This document shows, one piece after another, positions 16,100 to 61,562 of a DNA stretch of 64,000 nucleotides. The position numbers were made by a program, and so were the translations under genes. The stretch lies in assembly GCA_036867785.1 (NCBI GenBank), contig CP145420.1:558001-622000 (forward strand). The letters run 5' to 3'. The stretch is from Plasmodiophora brassicae. Its lineage: Eukaryota. Every line of letters starts with the position of its first letter. The first letter of the stretch is position 1. The notes below the pieces were generated by a model. The model searched no databases. It was not told the origin of the DNA and was given only the letters and a program-made list of their open reading frames with translations.

Positions 16100-17355
16100 A
16101 GTTTGACCGACTTTCGCCATGGCCAACAGGAGAGCGAGACAAGATTCCGCGACACCCGATACCCCCCGGCCACCTGGAGGCGGCGCAGGCGGCGCTCGAC
16201 CAGTCGGCGCTGACGCGCACAAATCGCTGCGGTTGTGGCGGAGGCGCTCCGGGCGCAGCGCGCCGAGATCGACGCCATGCTTCGGCAGCAGCGCGATCAG
16301 ATCCTGTCAGAGGTCGCCGCCCGCCAGCCAGTCGTGCCAAAGGCCGAGATCATCGACCCTGCGCGACCACGGCCGCCTCTCGTAGGTTGACGAAGGAGGA
16401 GCTCAACTACAAGATGCACGACACGGAGATGTTGGCGATTGTCCAGTCGTTCGAGAAGTGGCGCCAGCTCCTCGATTTGGCGCGCCACCAGACCCTGGTC
16501 CACAGCGATCACCGGAACCTCGAGTACTTCCTGAGCACGCCGAAACTTTCCAGGCGTCAAGCGCGGTGGTCCGAATCGCTGGGTGAATTCGATTTCCGCA
16601 TCCAACACCGCCCGGGACGCCTTCACGGAAAGGCGGACGCGCTTTCCCGCCGACCCGCGTACCAGCCCTCGCGCGACGGTCGCTTGCTGCCGCCGAATGC
16701 GTTCAATCAATGGCTCCCGATTGGCCTCCTGTCGCAAGGCGCTAATGGTGTGCCCGAGCGGGCCGGGAAGAAAGTGGTCCGGAGACAGCATTGGGAGGGA
16801 GCGCTGGATCGTCTCTTCTTCGGCGCGCGAGGGCTGGTGCACGGGTCGGCGGGAAAGCGCGTCCGCCTTTCCGTGAAGGCGTCCCGGGCGGTGTCGGATG
16901 CGGAAATCGAATTCACCCAACGATTCGGACCACCGCGCTTGACGCCTGGAGAGTTTCGGCGTGCTCAGGAAGTACTCGAGGTCCCGGTGATCGCTGTGGG
17001 CCAGGGTCTGGTGGCGCGCCGAATCGAGGAGCTGGCGCCATTTCTCGAACGACTGGACAATCGCCAACATCTCCTTATCGTGCATCTTGTAGTTGAGCTC
17101 CTCCTTCGTCAACCTACGAGAGTCGAACGCGAGCGGTCGCTGCCGATCGTCCGCGTCCCGCTGGGAGAGAACCATGGCAATAGCGAAGTCCGAGGCGTCT
17201 GTCTCGACCTCGCAGGACCGATCGGGGTTAAAGTGGGCCAGAACTGGGGCCGACGCACCGGATCCTATCATGGTCGACGGGGAGGCGGAACCCCTCTACC
17301 TCGTCAAGAACATCCTGGACCCAAGGTACAGACGGGGGCGCCTTCAGTATTTTCG
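16100..17355. mobile_element. Rearranged Ty3/gypsy (chromovirus) remnant: RNase H in both orientations plus chromodomain fragment
   Basis: Minus strand VETDASDFAIAMVLSQ..LAFDSRRL..NYKMHDKEMLAIV..SDHRDLEYF..RQARW..ADALSR, the same region again on plus at 16387-16675, and MVDGEAEPLYLVKNILDPRYRRGRLQYF on plus at ~17269. Confidence 0.85.
16377..17122. repeat. 299-bp inverted repeat (16377-16675 / 16824-17122) with 148-bp loop
   Basis: Arms are reverse complements with about 11 mismatches counted by eye, mostly transitions. Confidence 0.92.
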
Positions 17356-41498: not shown

Positions 41499-44400
41499 TT
41501 AGATCAGTAGGCTGACTACCACGCCAACCGTCAAGGCACTCCGACCCAGTGAAGCCGCTGCACTGGTGAAATTGCTGTTCCTGATAAGTGTCGATGGCGT
41601 CACTGGCGGCGGAGATGACGTCACGTGCTGTTTCGTCACCGGCGTAAGGGTTGGGGATGGCGTCTGCGCCGACGTTGGAGATGGCGTCAAAGCAGGCGTT
41701 GGAGATGGCGTCGGAGCCGGCGTTGGAGATGGCGTCGGAGCCGGCGTTGGAGATGGCGTCGGAGCCGGCGTTGGAGATGGCGTCGGAGCCGGCGTTGGAG
41801 ACGGCGTCGGAGCCGGCGTTGGAGATGGCGTCGGAGCCGGTGTTGGAGGTGGCACCGGAACCAGGGTTGAGGCTGGCGTCGGAGATAGCGTCGGCGATGG
41901 CGTTGGGTCTGAGGATGGCGCGGGCGTAGGTACCGAGCAAGCGCAAAACCTTCGATCCCAAGACGCCGGAATCACATTACAATAGTTGACCGTCACGTCA
42001 ATGCCGCTGGAGTACCAACATCCGCCATAAGAATCCGTCATCGGTCCTTGGGGCCATGCGTTGTACTGGGTGCAGCTGTGTACACCCACGTGGGCAGCAA
42101 TTTGAGCTACATCTGCAGGCGTTGTACAGGTCAGCAGCTGCTGCCAATCGCAAGTCATTCCGCCACCAAGTGCAGTGCAGGCATCGGTACACGTCTGACC
42201 ACCGGCACCTGCGTACCAGCTTGGCAGGTTGAAAACTGGAGACGGCGGCAACGTTGTCGCTGGCTTCGGCTTCGTGGTCGCCTTCTTCGTCGTTGGCTTC
42301 TTCACTGTAGTGGGCTTTCTCGTCGTCAGCTTCTTCACTGTCGCCGCATGTCCGGTTGTCCCCTTCTTAGCCGACTGCTTAGTGGTCGCGTGGTTCTTCG
42401 CCGTCTGCTTCTTGGTCGTCTGCCTTTTGGTTGACAGCTTCTTCGCAGTTGGCACATGAGTCGTTGTTTGTTTCTTTGTCGGAGCCGGCGTTGGAGATGG
42501 CGTTGGGGCTGGTGATGGGGCCGGCGTAGGTACCGAGCAAGCGCAAAACCTTCGATCCCAAGACGCCGGAATCACATTACAATAGTTGACCGTCACGTCA
42601 ATGCCGCTGGAGTACCAACATCCGCCATAAGAATCCGTCATCGGTCCTTGGGGCCATGCGTTGTACTGGGTGCAGCTGTGTACACCCACGTGGGCAGCAA
42701 TTTGAGCTACATCTGCAGGCGTTGTACAGGTCAGCAGCTGCTGCCAATCGCAAGTCATTCCGCCACCAAGTGCAGTGCAGGCATCGGTACACGTCTGACC
42801 ACCGGCACCTGCGTACCAGCTTGGCAGGTTGAAAACTGGAGACGGCGGCAACGTTGTCGCTGGCTTCGGCTTCGTGGTCGCCTTCTTCGTCGTTGGCTTC
42901 TTCACTGTAGTGGGCTTTCTCGTCGTCAGCTTCTTCACTGTCGCCGCATGTCCGGTTGTCCCCTTCTTAGCCGACTGCTTAGTGGTCGCGTGGTTCTTCG
43001 CCGTCTGCTTCTTGGTCGTCTGCCTTTTGGTTGACAGCTTCTTCGCAGTTGGCACATGAGTCGTTGTTTGTTTCTTTGTCGGAGCCGGCGTTGGAGATGG
43101 CGTTGGGGCTGGTGATGGGGCCGGCGTAGGTACCGAGCAAGCGCAAAACCTTCGATCCCAAGACGCCGGAATCACATTACAATAGTTGACCGTCACGTCA
43201 ATGCCGCTGGAGTACCAACATCCGCCATAAGAATCCGTCATCGGTCCTTGGGGCCATGCGTTGTACTGGGTGCAGCTGTGTACACCCACGTGGGCAGCAA
43301 TTTGAGCTACATCTGCAGGCGTTGTACAGGTCAGCAGCTGCTGCCAATCGCAAGTCATTCCGCCACCAAGTGCAGTGCAGGCATCGGTACACGTCTGACC
43401 ACCGGCACCTGCGTACCAGCTTGGCAGGTTGAAAACTGGAGACGGCGGCAACGTTGTCGCTGGCTTCGGCTTCGTGGTCGCCTTCTTCGTCGTTGGCTTC
43501 TTCACTGTAGTGGGCTTTCTCGTCGTCAGCTTCTTCACTGTCGCCGCATGTCCGGTTGTCCCCTTCTTAGCCGACTGCTTAGTGGTCGCGTGGTTCTTCG
43601 CCGTCTGCTTCTTGGTCGTCTGCCTTTTGGTTGACAGCTTCTTCGCAGTTGGCACATGAGTCGTTGTTTGTTTCTTTGTCGGAGCCGGCGTTGGAGATGG
43701 CGTTGGGGCTGGTGATGGGGCCGGCGTAGGTACCGAGCAAGCGCAAAACCTTCGATCCCAAGACGCCGGAATCACATTACAATAGTTGACCGTCACGTCA
43801 ATGCCGCTGGAGTACCAACATCCGCCATAAGAATCCGTCATCGGTCCTTGGGGCCATGCGTTGTACTGGGTGCAGCTGTGTACACCCACGTGGGCAGCAA
43901 TTTGAGCTACATCTGCAGGCGTTGTACAGGTCAGCAGCTGCTGCCAATCGCAAGTCATTCCGCCACCAAGTGCAGTGCAGGCATCGGTACACGTCTGACC
44001 ACCGGCACCTGCGTACCAGCTTGGCAGGTTGAAAACTGGAGACGGCGGCAACGTTGTCGCTGGCTTCGGCTTCGTGGTCGCCTTCTTCGTCGTTGGCTTC
44101 TTCACTGTAGTGGGCTTTCTCGTCGTCAGCTTCTTCACTGTCGCCGCATGTCCGGTTGTCCCCTTCTTAGCCGACTGCTTAGTGGTCGCGTGGTTCTTCG
44201 CCGTCTGCTTCTTGGTCGTCTGCCTTTTGGTTGACAGCTTCTTCGCAGTTGGCACATGAGTCGTTGTTTGTTTCTTTGTCGGAGCCGGCGTTGGAGATGG
44301 CGTTGGGGCTGGTGATGGGGCCGGCGTAGGTACCGAGCAAGCGCAAAACCTTCGATCCCAAGACGCCGGAATCACATTACAATAGTTGACCGTCACGTCA

Positions 44401-44963
44401 ATGCCGCTGGAGTACCAACATCCGCCATAAGAATCCGTCATCGGTCCTTGGGGCCATGCGTTGTACTGGGTGCAGCTGTGTACACCCACGTGGGCAGCAA
44501 TTTGAGCTACATCTGCAGGCGTTGTACAGGTCAGCAGCTGCTGCCAATCGCAAGTCATTCCGCCACCAAGTGCAGTGCAGGCATCGGTACACGTCTGACC
44601 ACCGGCACCTGCGTACCAGCTTGGCAGGTTGAAAACTGGAGACGGCGGCAACGTTGTCGCTGGCTTCGGCTTCGTGGTCGCCTTCTTCGTCGTTGGCTTC
44701 TTCACTGTAGTGGGCTTTCTCGTGGTCTTCTTCTTCGTCGTTTGCTTCCTGGTCGACAAAATATTTGTCGTGGATTTTCTCGTCGAAATCTTCGCCGTCA
44801 TCGGCTTCCTGTGCGTCGTCACGCCGTGAGTTGTCTCGGGATGTAGCAGCGTCGTTCGCCGACGTTTGGTTGACTCTGCTCCGCTCGCCATTGCCGTCAG
44901 GCATATGGCGCCAAGCACGGCGACCAGCAGAATCGTACGCGCCGTGTTGCTGGGCACCATCAT
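41499..44963 (-). CDS. Secreted/GPI-like mucin-type surface protein with five identical Cys-rich domains
   Basis: Signal peptide [18 protein letters not shown], Lys/Thr-rich linkers, 5x [20 protein letters not shown], (PTPSPTPA)n stalk, hydrophobic C-terminus [12 protein letters not shown]. Confidence 0.85.
41697..41840. repeat. 24-bp coding minisatellite encoding PTPSPTPA
   Basis: About 6 copies of GTTGGAGATGGCGTCGGAGCCGGC. Confidence 0.85.
41923..44723. repeat. Exact 600-bp tandem repeat, ~4.7 copies
   Basis: Lines at 41941, 42541, 43141, 43741 and 44341 are identical and the ORF track repeats with period 600. Confidence 0.97.
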
Positions 44964-45430
44964 CTTCGTCAAGGATGTCCCTGCCAAGTGCCCCGTCACT
45001 CAGGAGCCTGCGACCCAGTTGACTCGGGCGTCCGGTTGTCACCTCTGCCGCTGGTCTAGATGCGTCTGGCGGAACACACACGTTCGCCTGGGTCACCGAC
45101 AACCTCCCTGTCACCACCTGTGTCTGAATCGGTCGGCCCAGCAGGCCAGGACAATTCCTGTTCGAGAACCCACCCGCGACTCGCTGATGCCGAGCTCCGA
45201 CTCTAGAGAAGTCGGGACCGGTCAGATGACGTCGGCGAACGCTCGAACAAATGGGTACGCCGTGATGGACGATCCCATTCTGGGTACACTTAAGCATGTG
45301 AGACTAAGTGCTAAGCAGATTTTAGGCGCCACGCCGCATGAGGTTAGGGGTATGAACAGGAACTCGCAATGCCGCGCGTCACCTGGCGTCTCGTTGTCCA
45401 GCAGACCTGTGACCTGATGGTCAACCAAAG

Positions 45431-45816: not shown

Positions 45817-45960
45817 TGTCTAGCGGGCGCGCCCTGGCCCTGATCGGTGAAGGTCGAGCTGCAAACTCGACCACCAGCTTCGAACCGTGCGACTAATTCG
45901 GGACGCGCCGCCCGCCGTGCCAGACTGCTATTTCAGGGGCATATCCCCGCGATCCGTGGA

Positions 45961-45982
45961 CTAGTACACTATAGTGTACTAG
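45961..45982. repeat. 22-bp perfect palindrome, copy 1
   Basis: CTAGTACACTATAGTGTACTAG. Confidence 0.95.
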
Positions 45983-46163
45983 AGGTTTGACTGGACGTAA
46001 AACTTTAGCAAGGACATATTATTAAGTCATTGGCATTGTGATACACTGGTTACGCCATTCTGGATTGGGAGCTGAAAGTTGTGTATAATTCGGCCACCTA
46101 GTTGGCGAGGAACAACGTTGCCAAGTTGAGCATAATTTTCCCGTCACTCCCTATCAAAATAGC

Positions 46164-46189
46164 CTCTAGTACACTATAGTGTACTAGAG
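46164..46189. repeat. Palindrome copy 2 (extends to 26 bp)
   Basis: CTCTAGTACACTATAGTGTACTAGAG. Confidence 0.95.
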
Positions 46190-46823
46190 CCTCAGCGGCA
46201 TTCGTCGCTTAACTCCTCAACAAACGGACCGAAACAAGGAAATGAATCGAGTTCAATGTTAACACGAGCTGCTTGATCGGAGGCGCCGACTACGGCGACG
46301 TCCTGACTTCGCCTACAGCTCGGCTTCGATACGTACGCTGGCATACCTGCCGGCGTTCATATCAACTACCAAGCTGCGAGCATGTAGGTCCATGCGAACC
46401 CACCACATGAAAGTATAGACGAGCCCGTTCTGTGAAGCATGGAACTCACTGGTCTTCCATCATGACCGACGACAACATGCCGTCTGGATGACTGATCACC
46501 TTCCACCCATCCGTGGGGTCCTTCGCGGCTATGGCCTCCGATCTGTTGCTGCGACCCGAGCTGACGATTCTGCTGGAAACCTCTTCCACGTCCACGACCG
46601 CGTCCACGACCGCGAGTGGCCGTTCCGCTCGTTCCACAGCGTCCTGCTGCCATGGGCGAGATGCTGTTCCTGGTGACGACTCTCCAGCAGCGATGCACAG
46701 GTCGAGGAACCGCCATAAATCTATGGGTGGTATTTTGCGACGTGCTCTACCCAGCGCGCCTTAAATGACACGATTAGTCCAAAGTTTCTTGGAGAGGCAG
46801 GCTTCAGGAAACTGTCGCGAAAC

Positions 46824-46857
46824 GGCGCTCTAGTACACTAGAGTGTACTAGAGCGCC
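46824..46857. repeat. Palindrome copy 3 (34 bp, one central mismatch)
   Basis: GGCGCTCTAGTACACTAGAGTGTACTAGAGCGCC. Confidence 0.95.
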
Positions 46858-46868
46858 ATGCTGCATCT

Positions 46869-49628
46869 CTGCCTGTCGGTGCAAAAAGGAAAGGTTTCGT
46901 CGCCACGGCGATTTTGAGAAAATCGCGTTCAAAGGTTGCCCGGGGCTCGGCCATCGCGGAATCTGATTGTCGTCGTCCTTAGCTGACTGGTATGGAACTG
47001 TTACCGAGCGAAGATGTGAGGATCTTTCGTACGCAAAGGCGATATTCAGTGTGACCCGAGGTTCTCGTTCCTTGTGGCAACTCTCTCATCGCGAACATCG
47101 GCGATGCTGCTGCTCTATGCTCATCACCGTCATCGCTGGGCAGGCGCCTTTCCATCTCGGCGCCTTCGTGGTCAACAACGTATCGGTGTGGTAGTCCTCA
47201 TATGCAGTGATGGTTGCCGTCAGTTTCAGTCGATATAGCTGACTACAAGGTGTGTTTTTACTCAGGTTGCCAAGGCTGGCAAGTTCTTTCGCGCCTGGGT
47301 CTTTCTGGCAACTGCTGCTCTGGCGCCATGGAGTAGCACAGTGTCTGGTGCGGGGAACCTGTGGCGATATTTCGAGGGAATCGCTCGTGCCAAGTCATGT
47401 AGGGACTGCATTTTGATCGCATTAAGCATGACGGGCCCTTCATATTTCCGTTTCAGGATGCCCAACTCACCCTCCCCTTTGTCTATCCGTATCTTTCCCC
47501 ATGGCTCGTTCTTGCTGAAGGAATACCGGTACCACAGTTCGCCTGGATGATATACTCCATCGGTTTCCCCGAAGCTGAACCATCGAACTTTCTCGAATTT
47601 GATCGGCTGTCCACGGTAAGCTCCAATGTCTTTGCGATTGAGGACAGTGTACTTCCGTCCAAGGTACTCCTTCCAGGTATAGAAGTTCGGGTAGGAAACA
47701 TTACTGACTCGTGGCTTGTGGCCCACAGTGAAGGCGTCCGAAATGACTTCTGCTACTTCTTCTGGGACATACACCTTGCGTTTACGGAACTGCACGTCGA
47801 CTTTTGAGAAGAATCGGTCACAAGATAAGAACGTATGCCCAACGACTGGAAATTTGAGGTCAACTCGGCGATGAGTGTAGTGGCGACCGCCTCTTAACGT
47901 ATGCTCGTGAGCCCACATCATTACATATTGGTTCTTATTCTGTCCACGGCAATTGTCAGAGATCAGGATGAGGCCACCGCCGCGTCGACTGGGAGGCAAC
48001 GCCGCAGACAACTCATTCTCGAGGGTAGAGATCACTTCATCAGGTCCTCTCAAACCTTCACACTCGTTCCACACATAACAATGATGATCGCAAGTTGGGC
48101 ACCAAGGGCAGTGGATATCGAAAATGAACACTCCCAGTTGATCAACGAATCGGGCTTTCTTCAGTGGCAGGTTCGGCACGTAGAGCGTCCGCTCGAAGTC
48201 GTAGGTCATGGTGGTCCATGTTTGCATGGAATCGGGATTCGGCTCCATGGAAATCTCCTGGTCGTGGCGCATCATAGTATAACCAAACGCGGCGATAGCT
48301 CGATGGCTCTCCAACGTGTTCTGCAGCTTAACGACGTTCTCCAAGTCATTCCTGGCTTTCGCATCGTTCAGGTCTTCTTCCAATACAGCGCATGTCTCAC
48401 ACTGGTCCGTCTTAGCCCTCCTGAAACGAATGTAGCCGAACTGTTTCGCGAAATGTGCGAAGAACGTTTTCTGCTTCATGGGAAGCTGCACGACCGGTTG
48501 ATCGCTTGGAGATCCAGATTGCTGAGCGGACTGATATGCCCACCACTCAGGGAATTCATGTCGAAGAAACCGATCATATAACGCTCTCTCGCTGCCGGAA
48601 GATGGGAGGTAAATGACCGGTGAACTGCAATGGGCACGGCAATAATGGCTTGGCGTTCCTCTAACGAAACAGTGTCACACGAAGCACTGAGATGTAATAA
48701 TACGGTATTACTCTGAATGGACAACACCTTCGATGAATGCTTGCATCTTTCCCAAAACGATTGGGTCGACTTTCCTTTGCTTCCCATGCATGCCACGTGT
48801 ACTGGGTTTCATTTGTCCGGAGAAGTTGGGGTCGGTGAAGCGCTTACGTATCGATACGAGCCGCTTATCGAAGATGTTGAACACAATCATGAACATTTTG
48901 CGACAGACGTTGATTGTGCCGATCGTGTGTTCGACGTTGTACAGAACACGTAGCTTGCCCTTGGAGGATCTGGTCCTTGTCATGTGTCCGCAGAGATACT
49001 CCTGCTGTTGCTGCCAATTCATCGACCCGAACGCTGCTCTCATCGACTGAATCTGACCAGGTTCGATTCTCTCGCTACACTTTCGGGAGCATCCACAAGA
49101 CGTCACCTCAGGGAACGCTTTCCGACGTCTCTGGTTTCGAACCCATGTCGACGGGTTCGCCTGGCGCTTCTTCGGTCTCGTTAACGTTGCGATAGACTCC
49201 AGGTCGACACGGGCAGCACCAGGTTGACCTTCTTCAGCATCAACGTAGTCAATAGGGTCAGGGACAGTGCCAGAGTTGGAGGACATATCGTTATCTCGCC
49301 CCAGGTCGCTGCGACGATCTCGTTTGCTACCGACGTCCGTCATGCAGGAGTCGTTGTCAGCCACACAAGAAGTTCATTTTGCGCGCCTGCTGCCCGGGAA
49401 GCGCCGCCGGTCCCAGCACGCACTCCGCGACCGCCCTTATTTAGTGACGGTGTCCTCTGAGGACTGACTATGGCAAGGGGTTTCCGACCAAATATGAGCA
49501 CTTTCTATGTCCAGCGTAACGAAACAAACTATACCATCAGATTCGCCAGTTCGAGAGCTTTCCGATGATATACTTATCTCAAAATTGACTATGTCGACGA
49601 AACCTTTCCTTTTTGCACCGACGGGCAG
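46869..49628 (-). mobile_element. Sola1-type DNA transposon, apparently complete
   Basis: 34-bp TIRs CTGCC(T/C)GTCGGTGCAAAAAGGAAAGGTTTCGTCG at 46869-46902 and 49595-49628 (1 mismatch); 4-bp TSD ATCT at 46865-46868 and 49629-49632. Confidence 0.88.
47262..49343 (-). CDS. Sola1-like DDD transposase
   Basis: CGCSRKC, VCRKMF, SHYCR, TDQCETC, YDFER, WNECEGLRGPDEVIS, SDNCRGQNKN, VVGHTFLSCDRFF; one intron (~48662-48710) joins the frames. Confidence 0.82.
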
Positions 49629-50276
49629 ATCTATTTTAGGCTACGCAAAAATGTCTCTAGTACACAGCCCTCTCTAAATAGTGTCCGGAGTCCGAAAACG
49701 CCCTAAATACATTAAATAGAGGTCCGGCAGGTACCCTAAATAGGGCTGCATTGCGTTTCGAGCCAGCAGTGGTCGTCGTGAAGTCCAGACGTCTCTGCTT
49801 ATCATGCCCGGCAGGCAGGCATCGACAGGCTTCAACAAGGCGCATTGCATCGAATACGGTCTCAAGATCATAGGCCGAGATCCTGCGACTCATAAGGTGC
49901 GCTCTCTGCGATGCCAGTTCTGTGCCTTCTGTGGGCGCGAGGAGAAGGTTGGTGCGAAGCGCAAGAAGACGGAGAACGTCAAGTACTTTGATAAGTTCAA
50001 AGCGCAATACTACCTCCAGCACATTAGACTACAACACGCCAAGGAGTGGGAGACGTACCGCTTGCTCTCGAATGACGACAAGCTGGCGTACTTCGAGAAC
50101 CGCCAGAATTGTCACGATCAGGCAAGCTGATGCAACGAACGCTTTGACGGACTGGCGAAGTCCGTCGCGGGGTTCTCGGTTTATTCCGGACAGTCCTCAC
50201 ATAATAGTCCCCTTCTAGCGATGGGCCTCTGACGGGTCCGGGATAGAAGGGCAGACGGATGGCCTCTGATGGGTCG

Positions 50277-50520
50277 CAGACGAACGGACAGGCGGATGAG
50301 CAGGCAGACGGGCGGGCAGACGGACGGACAGACGAACGGACAGGCGGATGAGACGGGCGGGCAGACGGACGGACAGACGAACGATGAGCAGGCAGACGGG
50401 CGGGCAGACGGACGGACAGACGGACGAACGGGCAGACGGACGGACAGACGGACGAACGGGCAGACGGACGGATTAGCAGACGGACGGAGAGACGGGCGGG
50501 CGGGCAGACGGACGAACAGG
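50277..50520. repeat. GACG/CAGACGG-rich degenerate microsatellite
   Basis: Repeated gacggacg/gcagacgg/gacgaacg units. Confidence 0.85.
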
Positions 50521-50544
50521 TTTGGTTAGTGACAGCACGTCGCA

Positions 50545-52240
50545 ACCGAGGCCTTGACGTTGTGCAGGAGATGCCGAGGCGGGATCGACACTGGCGGACG
50601 GACGGACGGGTAGAGACAGCAAGCGGTCAGGGAAACACCGGCGGCCTGGGAGGCAAACAGCACGGCGGGACACGCGCACTCTGGAACTTGGACCAGCTGC
50701 GACCGAGGCCTTGACGTTGTGCAGGAGATGCCGAGGCGGGATCGGCACGGACGGACGGGAAGAGACAGCAAGTGGTCAGGGGAACACCGGTGGCCTGAGA
50801 GGCATACAGCACGGCGGGACACGTACTCTGGGACTTGGACCAGGTACGACCAAGGCCTTGACGTTCTGCGGGGGATGCCGAGGCGAGATCGGCACGGACG
50901 GACGGACGGGCGGGAAGAGACAGCAAGCGGTCAGGGGAACACCGGTGGCCTGAGAGGCATACAGCACGGCGGGACACGCACTCTGGGACTTGGACCAGGT
51001 ACGACCGAGGCCTTGACGTTCTGCGGGGGATGCCGAGGCGAGATCGGCACGGACGGACGGACGGGCGGGAAGAGACAGCAAGCGGTCAGGGGAACACCTG
51101 TGGCCTGAGAGGCATACAGCACGGCGGGACACGCACTCTGGGACTTGGACCAGGTACGACCGAGGCCTTGACGTTCTGCGGGGGATGCCGAGGCGAGATC
51201 GGCACGGACGGACGGGAAGAGACAGCAAGCGGTCAGGGGAACACCGGTGGCCTGAGAGGCATACAGCACGGCGGGACACGCACTCTGGGACTTGGACCAG
51301 GTACGACCGAGGCCTTGACGTTCTGCGGGGGATGCCGAGGCGAGATCGGCACGGACGGACGGGAAGAGACAGCAAGCGGTCAGGGGAACACCGGTGGCCT
51401 GAGAGGCATACAGCACGGCGGGACACGCACTCTGGGACTTGGACCAGGTACGACCGAGGCCTTGACGTTCTGCGGGGGATGCCGAGGCGAGATCGGCACG
51501 GACGGACGGACGGGCGGGAAGAGACAGCAAGCGGTCAGGGGAACACCTGTGGCCTGAGAGGCATACAGCACGGCGGGACACGCACTCTGGGACTTGGACC
51601 AGGTACGACCGAGGCCTTGACGTTCTGCGGGGGATGCCGAGGCGAGATCGGCACGGACGGACGGGAAGAGACAGCAAGCGGTCAGGGGAACACCGGTGGC
51701 CTGAGAGGCATACAGCACGGCGGGACACGCACTCTGGGACTTGGACCAGGTACGACCGAGGCCTTGACGTTCTGCGGGGGATGCCGAGGCGAGATCGGCA
51801 CGGACGGACGGGAAGAGACAGCAAGCGGTCAGGGGAACACCGGTGGCCTGAGAGGCATACAGCACGGCGGGACACGCACTCTGGGACTTGGACCAGGTAC
51901 GACCGAGGCCTTGACGTTCTGCGGGGGATGCCGAGGCGAGATCGGCACGGACGGACGGGAAGAGACAGCAAGCGGTCAGGGGAACACCGGTGGCCTGAGA
52001 GGCATACAGCACGGCGGGACACGCACTCTGGGACTTGGACCAGGTACGACCGAGGCCTTGACGTTCTGCGGGAGATGCCGAGGCGAGATCGGCACGGACG
52101 GACGGGAAGAGACAGCAAGCGGTCAGGGGAACACCGGTGGCCTGAGAGGCATACAGCACGGCGGGACACGTACTCTGGGACTTCGACCAGGTACCACCGA
52201 GGCCTTGACGTTCTGCAGGAGATGCCGAGGCGGGATCGAC
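50545..52240. repeat. 147/155-bp tandem satellite, ~11.5 copies
   Basis: Anchor GAGGCCTTGACGTT at 50548, 50705, 50852 (variant), 51007, 51162, 51309, 51456, 51611, 51758, 51905, 52052, 52199. Confidence 0.95.
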
Positions 52241-53759
52241 AGGAGGGTGGTGGGATAGGTAGTCCGTCAAAATGTCACGATCAGGCAAGCTGATGCAACG
52301 AACGCTTTGACGGACTGGCGAAGTCCGTCGCGGGGTTCTCGGTTTATTCCGGACAGTCCTCACAAAATGTCACGATCAGGCAAGCTGATGCAACGAACGC
52401 TTTGACGGACTGGCGAAGTCCGTCGCGGGGTTCTCGGTTTATTCCGGACAGTCCTCACAAGAATGTGCAAAACACCCTTGTCCGATATTGTGCAGCTGAG
52501 GACTCGATCAAGTTCCTGATCCACCGACCAATTGTCGACGATATCGTCGGTGATATCCTGTTCAATCGCACCGACGAGGACGTCGCGATGCCGCGCGAAC
52601 GTGCTTTGGCTCTGTTCCAGCAGCCCTGCCATGACGCAGGGACTATCAACGAGGCGGATGATCCATGTAACATGGATCATCTCTCCGACTTCTCTCTGCA
52701 AGGAATCATGCATTCAGGTCAATTTGACACATTGCACGCGATATGCACTGACCAGTGAGATGATTCCTTTGCCTTCTTGACGGCTTCTTCTCGTTCTACT
52801 AATACATTCCATCTTGTTACCCTGAATAACCTAAATAAGGTTCTGTGGCGAGCAATAAACAAGCTGTTTAGGTAAATAGTGTCCGGACACTATTTAGAGA
52901 GGGCTGCTAGTACACTATAGTGTACTACCCGTATTTTACAAAGAATACGACCCCCCTAATGTTCTCCGCGGACTTTCCGCTCGCTGTCATTTGGGGGTGG
53001 GGGTCTTGTTAAATGTAATATTTGGCAGATATAAAGTTTTGTACGTCAGAGTTTCGTTCGTTGGATTCCTTGCGGCGAGACGAGTTCGAAACTGCCTTTG
53101 TCTCGTTCTTGGCGTTTATCGTTGGCACGCTGCGTTGGGTGACAGTCGGAAGGGAGGGGTTACCCCAGCGCTGTTGAAGTGAACGGCGCGCAGACGGCGC
53201 GCATTTTTGATTGTAGCTAAATGGGGAAGGACTATGGAATTGTTAAAAACAGAGAATGGCTGGTGGAGTGTAAAATACATGTATTTTACACGTAAAAAAC
53301 ATGTTTAAAACAGCAGGGGGTTGCGCCCCCTCGCAGTACGCCTTCATACCATGGTCACGGTCCTGACAACCTGACCAGATTTGATGATCTCTTCGTCACC
53401 AACTGGGTACAAATGTGTGTCCGAAATCGCCTCGGCAAGTGTGCCTGGCTCGGCAATGCCAACGAACCCTGCGAACTCCAGTCGAATTACGTCTTCGTAA
53501 TCGGAATCATCGTCTGGCTCTTCGTCAAAGTCACGTACTACTACTTCCGAACCAAGCGACCCGGTTCAACGTGTGAAAGGGGTCATCTCGCGTATCTTTG
53601 TACGGCGATTCATCTGGGCACTTGAATGCGATCCCAGTTCCTTGCTCGACGTTGCATCCCGATAGTCGAGCGCGTAGCCGGGAGTGCACGCGGTTGCAGG
53701 ACTTGTGATTCCGCTCGCCCCCGACGACGACGACGCGCACGCACAACGAAGGCTCTGGG

Positions 53760-55242
53760 ATGGATCGGGAAACCCTTACGTTACCTGTATTTTACAGTGT
53801 AAAGTTGGTTCCTGAGTGGTGTATTTTACATGTAAAAAACAGGCTTGTAAAAAACACCCCTTTATTACAACAATTCCATAGGAAGGACAACGAAGGCGTT
53901 GCCCGGCGACGCTGCCTGCACACCGTCAAACAGAAGCGGGCCATTGTCCGTTCCGCCACAGCTCGTGGCAACATCAAGGCAACGGCACGTGAGTATGACA
54001 TCAAACCGTGTCAAATTCGTGACTGGCGAAAAAACTTAATGGGTCCGACCGACGAAACGTCGAGCGACAACAACGACGATGAAGGGATCATTCGGTTCGA
54101 ACCGTTCAGCACGCGAACGTCTAAGCGAAGGACGCGGTCTCACGGCAGAACGTCGACACTACCGGCAGACGTGAAGGAGACGATAGAGGAACATGTCAAA
54201 TACTTGGGCAGTTCTGACCTCAACATCAACGTCAAAGCCGTTCACCGGTTTGTCACATCGTAAGTTAACCGTTACGGCCAGTTACACATTACTTATTCGT
54301 GTGTATCCCAGACGGTGTCCTCAGTATGCCGCGTCCATCACGAACGCGCAGGCGTCCGAGCAGAAAATACGACGTTATCTGCATCGGAACGCCAAGCTCG
54401 TCGAGAGACGGTACACTCGGGTCGCCCAGAATACTCGCTACGACGAGGACGTTGTTCGTGACTACCTGTCGTCGGTCAACAACTTCGTCTGGGATCTTGG
54501 AATCATAGATCCGCATCTGCTGCTGAACATGGACGAGACCTCCCTACCGTTTGACCAACCGAAGTCATCGACTCTTGCTCTGAGGGGAGCTCGCACCATT
54601 CGATGCAGGACGACCGGTTCAAGCAGCAGTGCAACTGTGTGCTTAACCGTGTCGATGGCGGGGGACAAGCTCGGCATGTTCATCATTTTCAGAGGTAGCA
54701 CTATGAGTTGGCGTCGTTTTTCTTCGATCTCATTCTGATGGCAGGCGTCCCTGGAGGGCGGATCGAGAAAGAGCTCCGACTGCTCGACGCCCAGAAGCCA
54801 GAAGGGTGATGGTCACCGCTGTATCGTCCAGCAAAAGAACTGGAACGATGAAAGAGGCATGAGGGCTTACGTCGACCTGATCATCCGTCCATGGGTGGGT
54901 GGAAGACGGATGACCTCACTCCTTCTCCTGGACGATATGTCGGCGCACAAATGCCCGCCGGTAATTGACGCTCTGGCCCAACACGGCGTTGAGGTTGACA
55001 TTGTTGAGCCTCGCTACACCGGTCGCGTTCAAGTCCTGGACGTTGGTGTTAACAAGCCCTTCAAGGATCGCGTCCGATGCCTGTGGGAAAACTGGTTGCA
55101 CTCCGAAATGCAACGATGCCCGAACGTAGTTCCAAAGGTCACGCGTCCACTCGTTCGCGAGTGGGCTGTTGCGGCGTGGAACGAGGTCACTGCCGTATCA
55201 ATTACTAACACGTGGAGCGCGGTCGGGTTCAGGGTCAACTGA
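53760..55242 (+). pseudogene. pogo-type transposase (HTH + DDE_1) with a probable frameshift
   Basis: HTH NIKATAREYDIKPCQIRDWRK; LNMDET; TVCLTVSMAGDKL; LLLLDDMSAH; QVLDVGVNKPFKD; apparent extra G giving a stop near 54805. Confidence 0.8.
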
Positions 55243-55309
55243 GCGTATCCCAGAGCGTGCGATGAAACGAGACCAATCCTTTGTTGTTATAAACAGCAAA
55301 TCGCGTTCT

Positions 55310-55708
55310 TTATTCAGTTCGAATGCAGTTTTGCTTGATTACATCGAGGCATAGGCACACGGCCGACCCTCCACGTCTCTGAGACCGCGCTCTGGTATGA
55401 CGAAGCTCGCTATCTTTGCCCAGGCTCTCGACCACAAGCATTTTGTCCAGAAGTTCATCCTGACGCCATAACATTGATTTTGGCAGGAATGCTACTCTGC
55501 AAGAAGGGGTTTCGACTGTATGGACGGCGACCGCCTGCTCCTGGGATACAGGGACCCACTGGCCATTTACCTGGTCGTGTCGCTGGAGGAGCACCGGCAC
55601 GAGACGCAGCACGTCGGACGCTTTCACAGAATGTCCACATCCATCAGGATGACGCTCGCAGGAGCGACCACTGTCTGTGTAGTTCAGACCAACAATCTCA
55701 ACACGCAT
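55310..55708 (-). CDS. Small passenger protein inside the pogo element (HIRAN-like fold suspected)
   Basis: MRVEIVGLNYTDSGRSCERHPDGCGHSV..VLRL..AVAV..CRVAFLPK; convergent with the transposase and inside the TIRs. Confidence 0.6.
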   Translation of the reverse strand: MRVEIVGLNYTDSGRSCERHPDGCGHSVKASDVLRLVPVLLQRHDQVNGQWVPVSQEQAVAVHTVETPSCRVAFLPKSMLWRQDELLDKMLVVESLGKDSELRHTRARSQRRGGSAVCLCLDVIKQNCIRTE

Positions 55709-55962
55709 TGAGCAGCTATAGGTCCACGGCGACAGCAGCGTCCAATCCGCATTACGCATGTTCTGGGGGGGGGGGGGGGGGTCGGGTTCAAGGGGGGGTC
55801 GTATTCTTTGTAAAATACGGTAGACAATCGGCGGGATATACGCTGCCCGAAGCGGCGGCCCTGTGACCATGGGCAGCATGCAGGCATGCTATGAAACCCA
55901 GGACGCGCACGCACGTATGCGGCTCGGACGCTACGTGATACGTCATGAGCAAAGTGACTCAA

Positions 55963-58900
55963 CCCCCGGTGGCGCTCGATTGCCGCTCGACTCCGCTCGA
56001 ATGATCAATCGACAAGATTAATTCCTTTTTGGACCCCGGCAGCAAATCTTATTTTTCTGTGACTTCAGATCATTTTTGTTGGCGGATGCCTCGAGGAACA
56101 GGTGCCAAGAGCTCAGGCGGCAATGGCCGGCGAGGGCCGGATAAGATCAAGCGCAAGCGGTCGTGCTTCCGGAGGCCTTCTAAAAGCGCATCGGCAGCTG
56201 AGGTGTGCGATGCGAATTTGACTCCGCCTAGCTAGGCATCTTCTCATTATGTCTTTCAGAATCCAAATCCGTTTACCGCGCGAAATGTCAGTGCCGGCAA
56301 TGAGGAGTCATCGTCGTCGTCGCCGTCATCGTTGCCTCCACAACCATCGCCGTCACCTGCGTCATCGCCGTCACCATCGGATGCACGACATGTATGTATT
56401 TCACACGTCTACCGTACCTAATGATGCGCTGATTAACTTTCATCGCAGACGTTCGTCAAAGAGTACCTGCACACTCTGATAAAAGAGTTGAAAGAGCAGC
56501 TTCGTCAGGAGAAAGGCGCGCTGTACGATCACCTCAAACGAGGTATTCTACCGCTATCGTCGATGGCGTGAAACTATTTCTGATACGTACTGCTGTGGTC
56601 GTGGAAGGCCACACAACGATCGAACCTGTTAATCCGGTTATAGCCTGTTTCACTTCTGGGCTTAATCCAGAGCACTTCTGGAAACCGGCTCTTCGGTGCT
56701 GGCTTCCGAAGTTATGGTTCCCAGAACTGGACCTGAAATGCCCGAAGTGCCATCAGTTTGGAAAACACCATAAGCATGGTTACGCTTCGAAGTAAGTGAT
56801 ATTGCGGTGTCTCGTCACATCATCTCATACATATTATGTTCAGTCCCGAAGCGCGCTGTGTGGCAGGGCTCCGAAACGACTGGTATCTTTTTACGAGCGT
56901 GCTTCAGTGCGCTTTCTGCCGCCATCGATTCTACGCCACACATCCGGACGTGCTAGGCAATATGCATCAGGCGTTTAGCAACCCAATCCTGCTGCCGTTC
57001 GTCTTGTCCGAGTCGTCCGGTCTAGATTCCGATGTCGCATGGATGATGCCTATTATTTTCAATGATGGAGGAACGGCTGAGTCGTTACATCGGATGATGT
57101 CGGAAGGACACGCCGAGCAGCGTGACCTCTTGCATGCGGTGTACAATGCCGTGTGCGACTTCCGCCTGAAGAAGTCTGTGGGCCTGCCGGACCCGCCAAA
57201 GTTCGATCGGTCGCAGGTCGATGTCTCTGTGCCAGCTGCTTCCTCGTTGCTGTCGATCTACAAGCGTGAGACGCTGCGATATGAGAAGTATATGAATCTT
57301 CATATGTTGACGCTGTCGGCCGAGTCGGCCAAGCTGGACGCATCCCATAAGATGCCGAAGCTTATCTGCAACGTGAACGGCCAGCGCATATTCGATACAG
57401 CAGTCCAGGTACAGCCGGTAAGGCGTTGACGTACAAACTTCCACTAATGTCGTATGCTTTGATAGGTTACCAATGAGCGAAGTCAGATCGTCGCCTTTTA
57501 CCTATGTGCTGGTACAGGGCATGATCAGGTGGACTACTAAGCGTGTGCTATGACGTACTACCTTTTAACGATTGCCCTTGTAGATCGAGCGACCTCTGGC
57601 GCAATGGGTGCAATCTCGGAGCCTGCTCAATCAGAAGTTGCCGTCGTCAATAGGAACGGATAAAGTGAGGCCCCTTCACTGCATCCCCGGTCAAATCAGC
57701 TAACGTCGCTATAGTGCTGTGATGACGAGGCGTTCTTGACGCGACTTTTCAAATACGAACAGCATGTGGGTCGGCGCAGGCTTGAGCCGTTCACGTTGTC
57801 CGGTGGGCAAAGAACGTGCGTGATTGAATCGATCGGCAACGCCGATTCGATTGCCTTTGGAATGCTTCAAAGAGCGCACGAAGCTGGCCGACCACTGGCA
57901 GCTGGAGTTGACAGCGAGTGGGTTACTGTCAGGGGACAACGGCGGAAAGTGGCTACCGTTCAAGTGGCCCTTGAAGGCGATGATGCTGTGTATATTTTCA
58001 GACTTTCAAAGATGGGTGAGATGCCCCGAGGTCTGAAGGACTTCCTGGAGTCGACGAGCATCGTGAAAGTCGGCAAGTCGATTACAATCGACAAGCGACA
58101 CATATGCAACGATTACGGTCTCCGTGTCGACGGGACAGAATCCTGGATAGAGCTGGGGCAGTTCGCCTACCGTCGCGGCGCTGCTCCGAGTTCGTCGAGC
58201 TTGGCCAAGCTCGTCCAGACGATTTTGCAGCAAGAGCTCCCAAAGCCTGAGCTAATCCGTCAATCGAACTGGGAAGCGAACGAGCTTTCGTCCGAGCAGG
58301 TGCGCTATTGTGAAATGTGACAAACTTGTTCTAAATGTTTTCAGGTAATGTACGCCGCTCTGGACGCGCACGCTAGCTTGCAGGTCTACTTGCGCTTGGA
58401 GGCAACCCCAGATCCGACAGTTCGTCTCGCCATTCCGGGGTCATCTCGCGCTTGCAACGGCGCAGGTATTCCTGTTCCTGGCATGGCAGTCGAGCTGCTT
58501 GCACAAGGCACTCATGTCGTCGTTGCTCGAGGACGTATTTCGCAGTCGCAGCCCGCCATTTGGGAGCAGACGAAGGTGACGAAAGGCCGCATTGTTGTCG
58601 ACGTTGTAGAGGTAACTACTTCACGATGTAAGTAATAGCCCGGATATTGACCGTCATAGGTTCTGGCTTCTGCTGCCGAAGCCAAATATCCTAGGAACTC
58701 GAAGAGGACTCTGAGTTCCTTTGGATATTGTCCATTCTCCCTCTTAGTTGACATAACGTCGCTGCGCCCTACAATCCAACCACAAAGTACGTTTTCGTAT
58801 TCAGAAGATGGACATGGTCGTTATAATTATTTGTTTAGACCCACACAACAATGATGGAAGTTCCCTTGATGTGAGCTCCGTCTCGGTCGGGTCAGCCGAA

Positions 58901-61562
58901 GGTAGGCGTCGCTGGGCCCGTGCATTGCACTCTTTTGTGATATGCGTTAGAATCAGGTGGCGAACGAGTGAAACGTGTCCTGCAGGATATATTTCACATC
59001 ATGAAAAGGGTGAAGATCAGGAAGACCCATCCGTTTTACCCCGTATGGGTAATCGCACTAAGCGATGCGTTCTTCGTGTGGAACGAGGACGATGAACAGC
59101 GTGTCAGTTGCAGGCCGCATGTTTCTTTCTCCATTCTCACTATATTTCCTGTAGGTGATTAATAGTCTTATTAGCCGCGGCGAGAATCCGCTCTCCTGGA
59201 GGGTCCATCGCCGTGGCTATTTCCTTGACCGCGTTCGTCGAAGAATTCCTCCTCCAGGCCAGCTGGAAGAGCGTCTGAACCTTGTCTACAAGACGTGTTC
59301 TGGTCTGACAGACCACGACGGTAATTTTCTTCGTTATAAGTAATCAATGCGGGATCATTCATTGAGTTGCAGGCGTTCCCCTTTTCGACGATCGTGCACA
59401 CGCCGAATTTCGGAAAGTTCTGGAGCATGTCCGGAAGGGCTGCTGCAGTGATCCGGACGGGGACGAATACCCGTTTTACACGGCCGTCGGTGAGGATGGC
59501 CACGGACTCACGTTGTATCGGTGCCACCGTGGCACTAACTCCTGCGAGGCCAACCACAACGTCCTGAAAAGGAAGTTCGGGACGATGAACGCAGGCGTCG
59601 CATTGACGCATTGCTTGATGCTGTGGCACATACTGCGCACAAACATTCGCGCAGGAGAATCTTTCGGAGACGGCTCTCCGGTTCTGGGGCATTTCCGACC
59701 CTGGCTTGTATGTAACTGCTATTAGCGATTGCTGCGTTCTAAGTCTGTTTCCAGGTCGACTTCATTAACATGTATGCGACCAACGTATGGGGAGAGCCAC
59801 AGCTCCCTCAGTTTTCATCCGCTCTCGATTGGCAATGGGACGAGTTGCGTCCGTATTGCCAGATGTTGCACTTTGGAGGGGAATGCGACCCTGCACATGC
59901 GTAAATCCCACGATAGTACGTGCAAGTGCACACGCGTACTTTTTAATACTTGACGTCTTATAGGGGCGACCCAAACCCGCTTCTTTCCGACGACAAGCGG
60001 TACTTAGCCAAGTGCCAGGGCTCCACAGTTCCCTACCTTCCTGTGCACACTCCCGAAGAGGCCGATTTGTACCGGAAGGTACTGGCCGACTACGCAGATC
60101 GAAACCGTTCGACTGGAAAGGATTTCCAGGCGTTGGCGTCTCTATGGAACCAGCGGGCGTTGTCCCTTTGGCACCAGGTTAACCTCAACCGTCGGTGTAG
60201 TGAGCAAACCAATTCCTGGCATGATGAAGGATCGGACCAAGACGCGCACCCTAACGTTTTTCTCAAATTTGCTATTCATCTACGGAGGTTGTTGATTGTC
60301 TGACTTCTTGGGATACGCTATCTAACACGGTAACCAGGTATGATGAGCAGTTCCAAGCCGCAGTTATCGACCGCGAGTCCCGACGGGAAGCATCTTCAGA
60401 GACTTCCTCCCTGTTTGATGTTCTGCGCGGGCCGAATTGGCGACATCCGCAGGTACAGTCGTAGAGCTGGACACATTGCGTACTGTTAACTGAATTATTT
60501 TCCGCCGCTTGATCAGTACCGTGAATGTGAGACTGGCAGCGAAGAAGATCAAGACTGCAGGGTTCAGAATCACGTATATGGAACCTCGCAGAGAGTGGAG
60601 CCGGCTCACGGGGACAATCAGCCTGATAATGAATCGCAGGGGGAGAGAGACGCAGAGCGTGTTCAGGTGCGTGCTGGTTGCGCAAGGTTGCCACTACATT
60701 TATGAAGGTGTCGTGCAATGCAGAATACGGCGGCCAGCTCCGATGATTGTCACGATCCAGAAGAGTCTCCTGAGGGCCAATGTGGACCAGAACAGCCTCC
60801 AGAGGGTCAACATGCTCTAGGAAATCCTCCACAGGCTCCACAAGTTCTTCCAGAACGCCCACGTGAGCTGCAGGCGTCCCTGCAGCACAGTAACGTATGA
60901 TTTTAGCCCGCCATTTAACGAAAGCAACGCCCTGACTTGAACGCGTTTCTTCAGGTCGTACATCTACCGGCAATTGCGTTCGACAGCGCCACGCCTTCTG
61001 TGCTTTCAGCAGGACGACCAGCTAGCTCGGCGAAACGATCTAGCGCGTCGTATTCGGAACGGCGTTGCCACGCCCTTAAGTCACGAATGGTTAATCATGA
61101 CGACGACCTTCTTTGTGGCAAGTTAGGCTGCAGTGGACTACGAGGCCATCATCTGTGTAACAATACGGATGAGTCTACGTTTCTGGCACGCAAACGTTGT
61201 AAGGCGATCAAGGCGGCCCGTGACGTTGAAAAGAAAAGGCAGAAGCGCGCTGACAGCTAGCTGTTACTCCCATGCATTGTACTGGCAATACAAGATTGAA
61301 TTCGATCGGGATCTAGTAGGTAGATTTCCCAATAGTACTGGTACCGATCTCTCAGCGCATTATCGACATTGGGTGTCGCGCGCATTGAAGGCTGAGGGTG
61401 GCTGGGGTACTGCACGTGCAAGATGTAGGTCTATTTTGGTCTTTTGTATTCAAATATTTTGGCCGGCGCGCTGCGCGGCGGCCAGTGAAGTTCATTCGAG
61501 CGGCAGCCGGTTGGCCATCCGACCAACAGATTCCCAGATAGCGAGTCGAGCGCCAGCGCGGG
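55963..61562 (+). mobile_element. Putative extent of the Dada-like element
   Basis: Inverted motifs TGGCGCTCGA (55970) / TCGAGCGCCA (61546) and CCGCTCGAATGA (55993) / TCATTCGAGCGG (61492) bracket the gene. No TSD found, so ends are tentative. Confidence 0.5.
56086..61260 (+). CDS. Dada-like DDE transposase with inserted DEDDy 3'-5' exonuclease, many exons
   Basis: Zn-finger-like WLPKLW..KCPKC and LQCAFC; LDASHK; VTNERSQIV; GTDK|CC; exonuclease GVDSEW / IDKRHI / YAALDA; QDIFH (DxxH); YRCHRGTNSCEANH; YLPVHTPEE. Confidence 0.72.

What the first reader, a model, noticed from the sequence alone, without database searches (positions are those of the whole stretch)
45961..55823. Four 22-bp palindromes with unique spacers form the scaffold and insertion hotspot of the transposon nest
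Seen: CTAGTACACTATAGTGTACTAG occurs at 45961, 46166 and 46830 (one mismatch). A fourth copy is split into 49657-49664, 52907-52927 and 55821-55823. Removing Sola1, hAT and pogo at their TSDs rebuilds a perfect copy 4 and a ~950-bp locus with unrelated spacers of 183, 642 and 41 bp. Copies 2 and 3 extend their symmetry with different flanks (26 and 34 bp), and the outer flanks are weakly inverted (ATATCCCCGCGAT vs ATCGGCGGGATAT). None of the recognised elements explains the palindrome. Inference: it could be the terminus of an undescribed non-autonomous element family, a recombinase/resolvase/HUH site delimiting cassettes, or a protein-bound site that attracts transposases.
Basis: partly seen in the sequence, partly recalled or inferred. 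Interest (0 to 1): 0.8.

Follow-up and report, generated by a model that had tools for sequence, protein, structure and literature searches.

The report
Palindrome-ended jumping DNA targeting ATAT
The four palindromes are the two ends, two at each, of one small mobile DNA element that inserts at ATAT and differs in position between isolates; its design resembles piggyBac transposons, but the enzyme that moves it was not found.

Summary
The palindromes are real, and the rebuilt copy 4 is confirmed by an uninterrupted copy on contig C8. They are not a cassette scaffold. They are the subterminal repeats, two per end, of a 981-bp non-coding mobile element with three young copies (C11, C8, C4; 20 or fewer mismatches to C8) and one old fragment. 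The spacers are shared between copies. An empty allele in 2 of 4 runs holds one ATAT, so the target ATAT is duplicated and the ends are CCCCGCGAT...ATCGGCGGG. Depth implies about 2.4 and 6 copies in two runs, with new flanks at the exact tips. The layout matches piggyBac group SG4 (palindrome at bp 17, as in T. ni), but the target is ATAT, not TTAA, and no piggyBac transposase was found (control silent). No joints between palindromes or circles were seen. Nested insertions are frequent (6 sites) but not significantly focused on the palindromes (2 of 6, P about 0.09). Verdict: a non-autonomous TIR-type transposon with an unusual strict target; superfamily and enzyme open. Side finding: a hairpin-type excision footprint of the nested Sola-like element.

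The parts
45945..55835 (.). Whole non-autonomous element in the window (981 bp when uninterrupted), split by three nested transposons
   Evidence: Intact copy C8:659652-660640 and copy C4:380125-379137 share both ends, with different flanks
45941..45944 (.). Left target-site duplication ATAT
   Evidence: Empty C8 allele holds one ATAT: joint skips 985 bp with 5 ambiguous letters; coordinates
45945..45953 (+). Left imperfect terminal repeat CCCCGCGAT
   Evidence: 7 of 9 match to the right tip; alignment
45961..45982 (.). Palindrome 1, bp 17-38 from the left tip
46164..46189 (.). Palindrome 2 with extended arms (core 46166-46187), bp 222-243 from the left tip
46596..46697 (+). Interior segment 78% like the 5' region of a long PPR-DYW-like ORF on C15 (label read from the sequence, not scanned); no coding signal in the interior
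46824..46857 (.). Palindrome 3 with extended arms (core 46830-46851), bp 76-97 from the right tip
46869..49628 (-).
49657..49664 (.). First 8 bases of palindrome 4 = left TSD of the hAT-like element
49665..52906 (+). Nested hAT-like element (25-bp TIR, 8-bp TSD, internal 147-bp tandem array, own 24-bp palindrome at 52873-52896); no Pfam hit for its two ORFs
52907..52927 (.). Middle of palindrome 4 (right hAT TSD plus 13 bases, ending in the pogo TA)
52928..55820 (+). Nested pogo-like element (HTH plus DDE_1, 28-bp TIR, TA TSD, own 24-bp palindrome at 53268-53291 built from its TIR motif)
55821..55823 (.). Last bases of palindrome 4; the whole palindrome lies at bp 13-34 from the right tip
55827..55835 (-). 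Right imperfect terminal repeat (reads CCCGCCGAT on the minus strand)
55836..55839 (.). Right target-site duplication ATAT

Best explanation
Shown: one 981-bp non-coding mobile element, bounded by a single-copy-to-double ATAT, imperfect 9-bp CCC...GGG inverted tips and two copies of a 22-bp palindrome at each end. It has moved recently, because its presence and copy number differ between sequenced samples. Inferred: it is a non-autonomous cut-and-paste (DDE) transposon that works like piggyBac. A transposase supplied in trans binds each palindrome as a dimer of DNA-binding domains, pairs the two asymmetric ends, cuts at the CCC/GGG tips and inserts with a 4-base stagger into ATAT, duplicating it. 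The inner palindromes add binding sites for a larger transpososome. Other transposons land in it because it is TA-rich, non-genic DNA in a GC-rich genome, and the palindromes are also unstable as hairpins. That the element is mobile and the palindromes are its subterminal repeats is about 0.95 likely; the confidence below is for the piggyBac-like DDE mechanism.
For: All 11 genome-wide 22-mer matches (2 mismatches or fewer) lie in three copies with identical ends and unrelated flanks. All 6 exact terminal 15-mer matches are these ends. The empty allele in 2 of 4 runs (2 studies) gives a 4-bp ATAT duplication. In run X24 new flanks begin exactly outside ATAT at both tips (180 reads left; 53 and 39 right), depth ratio 6.0 against 2.4 in X23. 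In the old C4 fragment, 79% identical overall, the tip 9-mer and the half-site 10-mer are kept 19 of 19 (0.79^19 = 0.011). Precedent: piggyBac group SG4 has TIR plus repeats that are both direct and inverted because they are palindromic (PMC5381638, passages); in T. ni piggyBac a CRD dimer binds a 19-bp palindromic repeat at bp 17-33 of asymmetric ends (PMC7351741, passages); here palindrome 1 starts at bp 17. Internal control: the nested pogo-like and hAT-like elements carry their own perfect 24-bp palindromes built from their TIR motifs.
Against: The target is ATAT, not TTAA; PMC5381638 reads rare non-TTAA sites as mutated single copies. Tip positions 4-6 fit the piggyBac tip motif at only 1 of 3 places on each end. 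No piggyBac transposase was found: PF13843 gave 0 candidates, although its control rang in 0 of 14 genomes; PF01609 gave 4 matches, all at loci already hit by PF13359. Only one orthologous empty site was seen. The C7 paralogue of the window's flank has 2 letters where ATAT is expected, which alone would fit a 2-bp duplication, and the old copy has AGAT. A constant 4-bp repeat cannot formally be told from a recombinase core or a rolling-circle target. The palindrome arms extend with different flanks, which hints that hairpin structure matters.
Confidence: 0.6

Rival explanations
1. Rolling-circle or single-strand (HUH) element of Helitron2, Replitron or IS91 type: the palindromes act as hairpins and ATAT is a target tetranucleotide repeated at one end of the element.
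For: Strong hairpins at both ends (right 130 bases fold at -27.6 kcal/mol); arms extend with different flanks; one old copy keeps only the right end; a gene-like fragment inside. Hairpins and tetranucleotide targets are general for Rep transposons (PMC10288648; PMC3627910; passages).
Against: The ends are inverted-symmetric; both tips are exact in the new insertions shown; the element starts with C, not the 5'-T of Helitron2; one ATAT pre-exists at the empty site, whereas Replitron-1 carries both direct repeats. HUH genes were not searched for in this genome.
Confidence: 0.13
2. Non-autonomous Sola-type DDE element moved by one of the genome's DUF7869 transposases.
For: 10 DUF7869 matches in the genome; the window's Sola-like element is recent (99.96% copy) and makes 4-bp A..T duplications (ATCT, ACTT); Sola2 elements with ATAT, AAAT, ATTT duplications are described (PMC3627910).
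Against: The target here is ATAT at every young site seen, while Sola targets vary; the terminal 11-mers differ from two local Sola ends at 7-8 of 11 places, far beyond the Repbase rule of one mismatch (PMC4455052).
Confidence: 0.1
3. Tyrosine-recombinase (Crypton-like) element: ATAT is the crossover core, the tips are core-type sites and the palindromes arm-type sites.
For: Cryptons carry 4-6 bp terminal direct repeats (PMC3212892); one PF00589 match exists in the genome.
Against: That gene lies among host genes, with no element end or palindrome in 40 kb around it; no circle or strand-switch joint in 4 runs; Cryptons are described as lacking TIRs.
Confidence: 0.08
4. The palindrome is a host protein site or recombination site that delimits exchangeable cassettes and attracts transposases.
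For: Palindrome 4 is hit twice in C11 and deleted by 11 bp in C4; palindrome 3 has a 13-bp duplication in C4. The hAT-like element's own palindrome shares the heptamer ATAGTGT with the 22-mer.
Against: The full motif occurs only inside this element; spacers are fixed; only 2 joints were listed, neither between palindromes; 2 of 6 insertion sites in palindromes is not significant.
Confidence: 0.05

Closest known systems
piggyBac-like elements of structural group SG4 (e.g. piggyBac-5_Ccri; T. ni piggyBac ends)
   Same: CCC...GGG tips, strict palindromic 4-bp target that is duplicated, short TIR plus palindromic subterminal repeats that are both direct and inverted, asymmetric ends, palindrome starting at bp 17
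   Different: Target ATAT instead of TTAA; tips imperfect (7 of 9); four perfect 22-bp palindromes; no transposase in the element or found in the genome
Repbase piggyBac side groups said to target ATAT (piggyBacA / piggyBacX; recalled, not verified)
   Same: ATAT duplication, if my recall is right
   Different: Could not be checked: no relevant paper found and the review asked for is not held
Sola elements
   Same: 4-bp AT-rich duplication; present and recent in this genome
   Different: Variable targets; no terminal similarity
Crypton, Helitron2, Replitron, IS91-type elements
   Same: Short terminal direct repeat or terminal hairpins
   Different: This element has inverted-symmetric, exact ends; no linked recombinase; no circles seen

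Membership tests
piggyBac | TTAA target-site duplication | tested here: not met
   ATAT at 3 of 3 young copies and at the empty allele
piggyBac | Strict palindromic 4-bp target, duplicated on insertion | tested here: met
   One ATAT at the empty C8 allele, new flanks outside ATAT; C7 paralogue and old copy deviate
piggyBac | Tip motif C[CAT][CAT][TGA][TAG][TGA] (PMC5381638) | tested here: inconclusive
   CCC met at both ends; positions 4-6 fit 1 of 3 at each end
piggyBac | Short TIR plus palindromic subterminal repeats (SG4) | tested here: met
piggyBac | DDE_Tnp_1_7 transposase in the element or an autonomous partner | tested here: inconclusive
   Element non-coding; PF13843 0 candidates in the genome, control silent
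piggyBac | Seamless excision through hairpins on the element ends | not testable with these tools
   An empty allele cannot be told from a never-filled one
Sola | 4-bp AT-rich TSD | tested here: met
   PMC3627910 passage
Sola | Terminal 11 bases match a known member with at most 1 mismatch (Repbase rule) | tested here: not met
   7-8 mismatches to the two local Sola-like ends compared; not compared with Repbase
Crypton | 4-6 bp terminal direct repeat without TIRs | tested here: not met
   Direct repeat present, but the ends are inverted-symmetric
Crypton | Linked tyrosine recombinase or circular intermediate | tested here: not met
   1 PF00589 match, unlinked; no circle joint in 4 runs at 3 reads or more
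Helitron2 / Replitron / IS91-type | Terminal hairpins | tested here: met
Helitron2 / Replitron / IS91-type | 5'-T with asymmetric TIRs, or fuzzy / one-ended insertions | tested here: not met
   Starts with C; both tips exact in the loose ends shown, 80 more not shown
Helitron2 / Replitron / IS91-type | HUH transposase sharing these ends | not tested
   No HUH family search of the genome was run
Cassette array (integron- or CRISPR-like) | Spacers vary or are exchanged between copies | tested here: not met

The most novel reading that the evidence does not exclude
The element is moved by a still active transposase that current Pfam models miss: a piggyBac-related or unclassified DDE lineage that has switched its strict target from TTAA to ATAT and binds perfect 22-bp palindromes. 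Finding it would give a natural tetranucleotide-specific, possibly seamless, vector with a new target.
Probability: 0.2. Interest if true: 0.7.

Novelty: new variant of a known kind. Interest (0 to 1): 0.36.

Why it matters
Palindromic subterminal repeats in non-autonomous DNA transposons are known, so the scaffold idea reduces to an ordinary design. What remains of interest is the strict ATAT target with piggyBac-like ends and no recognised enzyme, in a rhizarian-type genome whose DNA transposons are barely annotated. TTAA recognition in piggyBac is structurally tied to seamless excision, so a natural ATAT-specific relative would test that link and could be a tool. The element is also a usable presence/absence marker between isolates. 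The nested Sola-like element's apparent footprint would, if confirmed, show that this poorly studied group excises through hairpins on the flanking DNA.

Tried and rejected
Autonomous partner: the 22-mer, tip 15-mer (24 of the 26 one-mismatch hits inspected), half-site 10-mer (27 hits: 19 in the three copies, 1 in the old copy, 7 isolated; reversed control 23) and a DNA search found none. Family searches of the genome: PF13843 0 (control silent), PF13359 23, PF00589 1, PF25273 10, PF07282 1 below cut-off, PF01609 4. Twenty 10-kb stretches around PF25273 and PF13359 matches and 505,601 fetched bases showed no further ATAT-CC...GG-ATAT element that fits; that scan would not list the C8 copy itself only through an indexing choice, so it is weak. 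Two internal loose ends, first read as possible autonomous interiors, proved to be ends of other repeats. 64 ORFs around C8 and C4 gave host genes and LTR retrotransposons, plus one HTH_Tnp_Tc3_2 hit below cut-off, and no candidate partner. Interior coding: no frame shows synonymous bias against the old copy, no convincing Pfam hit, no Atlas hit; Rfam 1 match far below its gathering score. Public collections: exact 22-mer 0 in metagenomes and 0 in prokaryote genomes; the 20-mer with one free base gave 2 viral and 10 metagenome loci, each a single site with unrelated flanks, so they are rejected as relatives. A 2-bp AT duplication, suggested by the C7 paralogue, was rejected after the orthologous empty allele. 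The sigma-70 scan is not relevant to a eukaryote. Literature searches found no description of this element or of an ATAT-specific family; one search found no paper with the term Sola1 among its 15 listed. The supplement of PMC5381638, which lists TSDs and repeats per element, could not be read and may bear on the ATAT claim.
Full report
1. Observation. The 22-mer CTAGTACACTATAGTGTACTAG is at 45961 and 46166 exactly, at 46830 and 52907 with one mismatch, and at no place in 100 shuffles. The genome (25.3 Mb, 20 contigs) holds 11 matches at up to 2 mismatches, at three loci only: 4 in the window, 4 on C8, 3 on C4; the reversed control gives 0. The C8 locus is uninterrupted, with spacers of 183, 641 and 41 bp, and matches the window's element at 977 of 989 aligned positions once the nested elements are skipped.

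2. What it is. The three loci share sequence from ATAT-CCCCGCGAT to ATCGGCGGG-ATAT and nothing outside. C8 differs from C11 by 12 mismatches over 923 bp and from C4 by 20 mismatches, plus a 13-bp duplication at palindrome 3 and an 11-bp deletion in palindrome 4 of C4. So this is one young mobile element, and the spacers are its fixed interior. Reads of four public runs were laid on the C8 locus. In 2 of 4 runs (X10, X11; two studies; contigs) a joint skips 985 bp with 5 ambiguous letters, leaving a single ATAT: the element is 981 bp and ATAT is duplicated. In the two raw-read runs that empty allele was not seen; depth inside over depth outside is 2.4 (X23) and 6.0 (X24). X24 has at least two right flanks not in this assembly and mixed left flanks, all starting just outside ATAT; 80 further loose ends were not shown. 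Only two joints were listed, neither between palindromes, and none went back or changed strand. An old fragment (C4:655306-655734, 79% identical) keeps the right tip and a half-site at 19 of 19 bases and has lost the left end.

Against the 4-bp reading: the C7 paralogue of the window's flank (92% and 78% identical on the two sides) has two letters where ATAT is expected, and the old fragment has AGAT. Only one orthologous empty site was seen.

3. Anatomy. The palindromes lie at bp 17-38 and 222-243 from the left tip and at bp 13-34 and 76-97 from the right tip: two per end, spaced asymmetrically. The interior shows no coding signal and no RNA family. About 100 bp resemble the 5' region of a long PPR-DYW-like ORF on C15; the direction of copying is unknown. 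The nested pogo-like and hAT-like elements each hold a perfect 24-bp palindrome made of their own TIR motif, so palindromic subterminal sites are a normal feature of ordinary DNA transposons here.

4. How it most likely works. Shown: mobility, exact ends, one-to-two ATAT, four conserved palindromes. Inferred: transposition in trans by a DDE enzyme in the manner of piggyBac. Dimers of its DNA-binding domain would hold the palindromes, the catalytic dimer would cut at the CCC/GGG tips, and a 4-base staggered attack on ATAT would give the duplication. PMC5381638 (passages) describes a piggyBac group with TIRs plus repeats that are direct and inverted at once because they are palindromic. PMC7351741 (passages) shows a CRD dimer on a 19-bp palindromic repeat at bp 17-33 and a need for asymmetric ends. 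I put this mechanism at 0.6. The rivals are HUH rolling-circle (0.13), Sola (0.10), tyrosine recombinase (0.08) and host or cassette site (0.05). A constant 4-bp repeat cannot by itself separate a duplication from a recombinase core or a rolling-circle target; the inverted symmetry and the two exact tips tilt it to DDE.

5. The missing enzyme. No longer element with these ends exists in this assembly. PF13843 gave no candidate, but its control rang nowhere, so absence is not shown. The one tyrosine-recombinase match is unlinked, no TnpB/Fanzor match passed its cut-off, and local Sola-like, hAT-like, pogo-like and Harbinger-like ends differ from the tips at 6-9 of 11 places. HUH families were not searched. 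The partner may be in other isolates, lost, or unrecognised.

6. Hotspot claim. Six nested-insertion sites are visible: element positions 81, 303 and 320 in other runs (ends of other repeats), and the Sola-like, hAT-like and pogo-like insertions of the window. Two of 6 fall in palindromes, which cover 9% of the element (P about 0.09); 23 of its 60 TA dinucleotides lie in them. The element has 61 TA per kb against 22 in the first 41 kb of the window. The C4 copy sits among LTR retrotransposons and the window's copy in another repeat. TA-rich neutral DNA explains the nest; a special pull of the palindromes is not shown, though the lesions in C4 suggest that they are unstable.

7. Comparison and novelty. 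It works like a piggyBac SG4 element but fails the TTAA test, so it is not filed as a piggyBac. I recall Repbase side groups with ATAT targets; this is unverified. Sola2 elements with ATAT among variable targets are described (PMC3627910, passages). Crypton (PMC3212892), Replitron (PMC10288648) and Repbase rules (PMC4455052) were read as passages. A genome paper for the presumed species (PMC11191646, passages) has 0 occurrences of piggyBac or palindrome in its main text. Searches found no description of this element; the library lacks most subscription papers and Repbase. Single sites of a similar palindrome in 12 viral and metagenome loci have unrelated flanks.

8. Side finding. In X24, 39 of 251 reads (27 start places) carry a 4-bp insertion exactly at the Sola-like element's site. 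The result equals the doubled TSD with the innermost base of each copy complemented, the kind of base exchange that the hairpin model gives for Ac/Ds (PMC2921059, passages). This suggests excision through hairpins on the flanking DNA.

9. Verdict. Observation confirmed; interpretation partly supported. A recently mobile non-autonomous TIR-type transposon with a strict ATAT target, piggyBac-like in design, enzyme unknown. New variant of a known kind; interest 0.36.

Noticed in passing
L012:5576 (window 46865-46868), run X24: 4-bp insertion in 39 of 251 reads at the Sola-like element's site equals a hairpin-type excision footprint; suggests flank-hairpin excision for this group.
   Followed up: partly
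window 46869-49628 and G000:C14:1020065-1022826: The Sola-like element has a 99.96% identical copy with TSD ACTT, so it is very recent.
   Followed up: partly
window 52873-52896 and 53268-53291: The hAT-like and pogo-like elements carry their own perfect 24-bp palindromes; the hAT one shares the heptamer ATAGTGT with the 22-mer it inserted into.
   Followed up: partly
window 56433-60300: Broken multi-ORF unit with DUF6729 and a 3'-5' exonuclease domain; Atlas neighbours under 0.9 carry CxC4/CxC5 domains, a lead to a KDZ-like transposon.
   Followed up: partly
G000:C12:1015155-1016822: The only tyrosine-recombinase match of the genome, among host genes; possibly a domesticated Crypton-like gene.
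   Followed up: partly
G000:C15:611000-631000: Inverted duplication of a chitin-synthase-like gene around a 1041-aa PPR-DYW-like ORF, with many rearranged fragments; labels read from the sequence.
   Followed up: no
window 41499-44999: 1166-aa secreted-looking ORF with 200-aa Cys-rich and Thr/Lys-rich repeats and a Pro-Thr tail.
   Followed up: no
window 16374-17125: 305-bp inverted repeat at 96%, with related stretches on C4 and C14.
   Followed up: no
L126-L135: Repeat family with 13 matches, mostly near contig ends, ending at a TA; one end lies inside the element in run X24.
   Followed up: partly
L067, L068, L176-L185: Single operator-like palindromes with the same 9-bp arms in unrelated viral and metagenome contigs, often with further extended symmetry.
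   Followed up: partly
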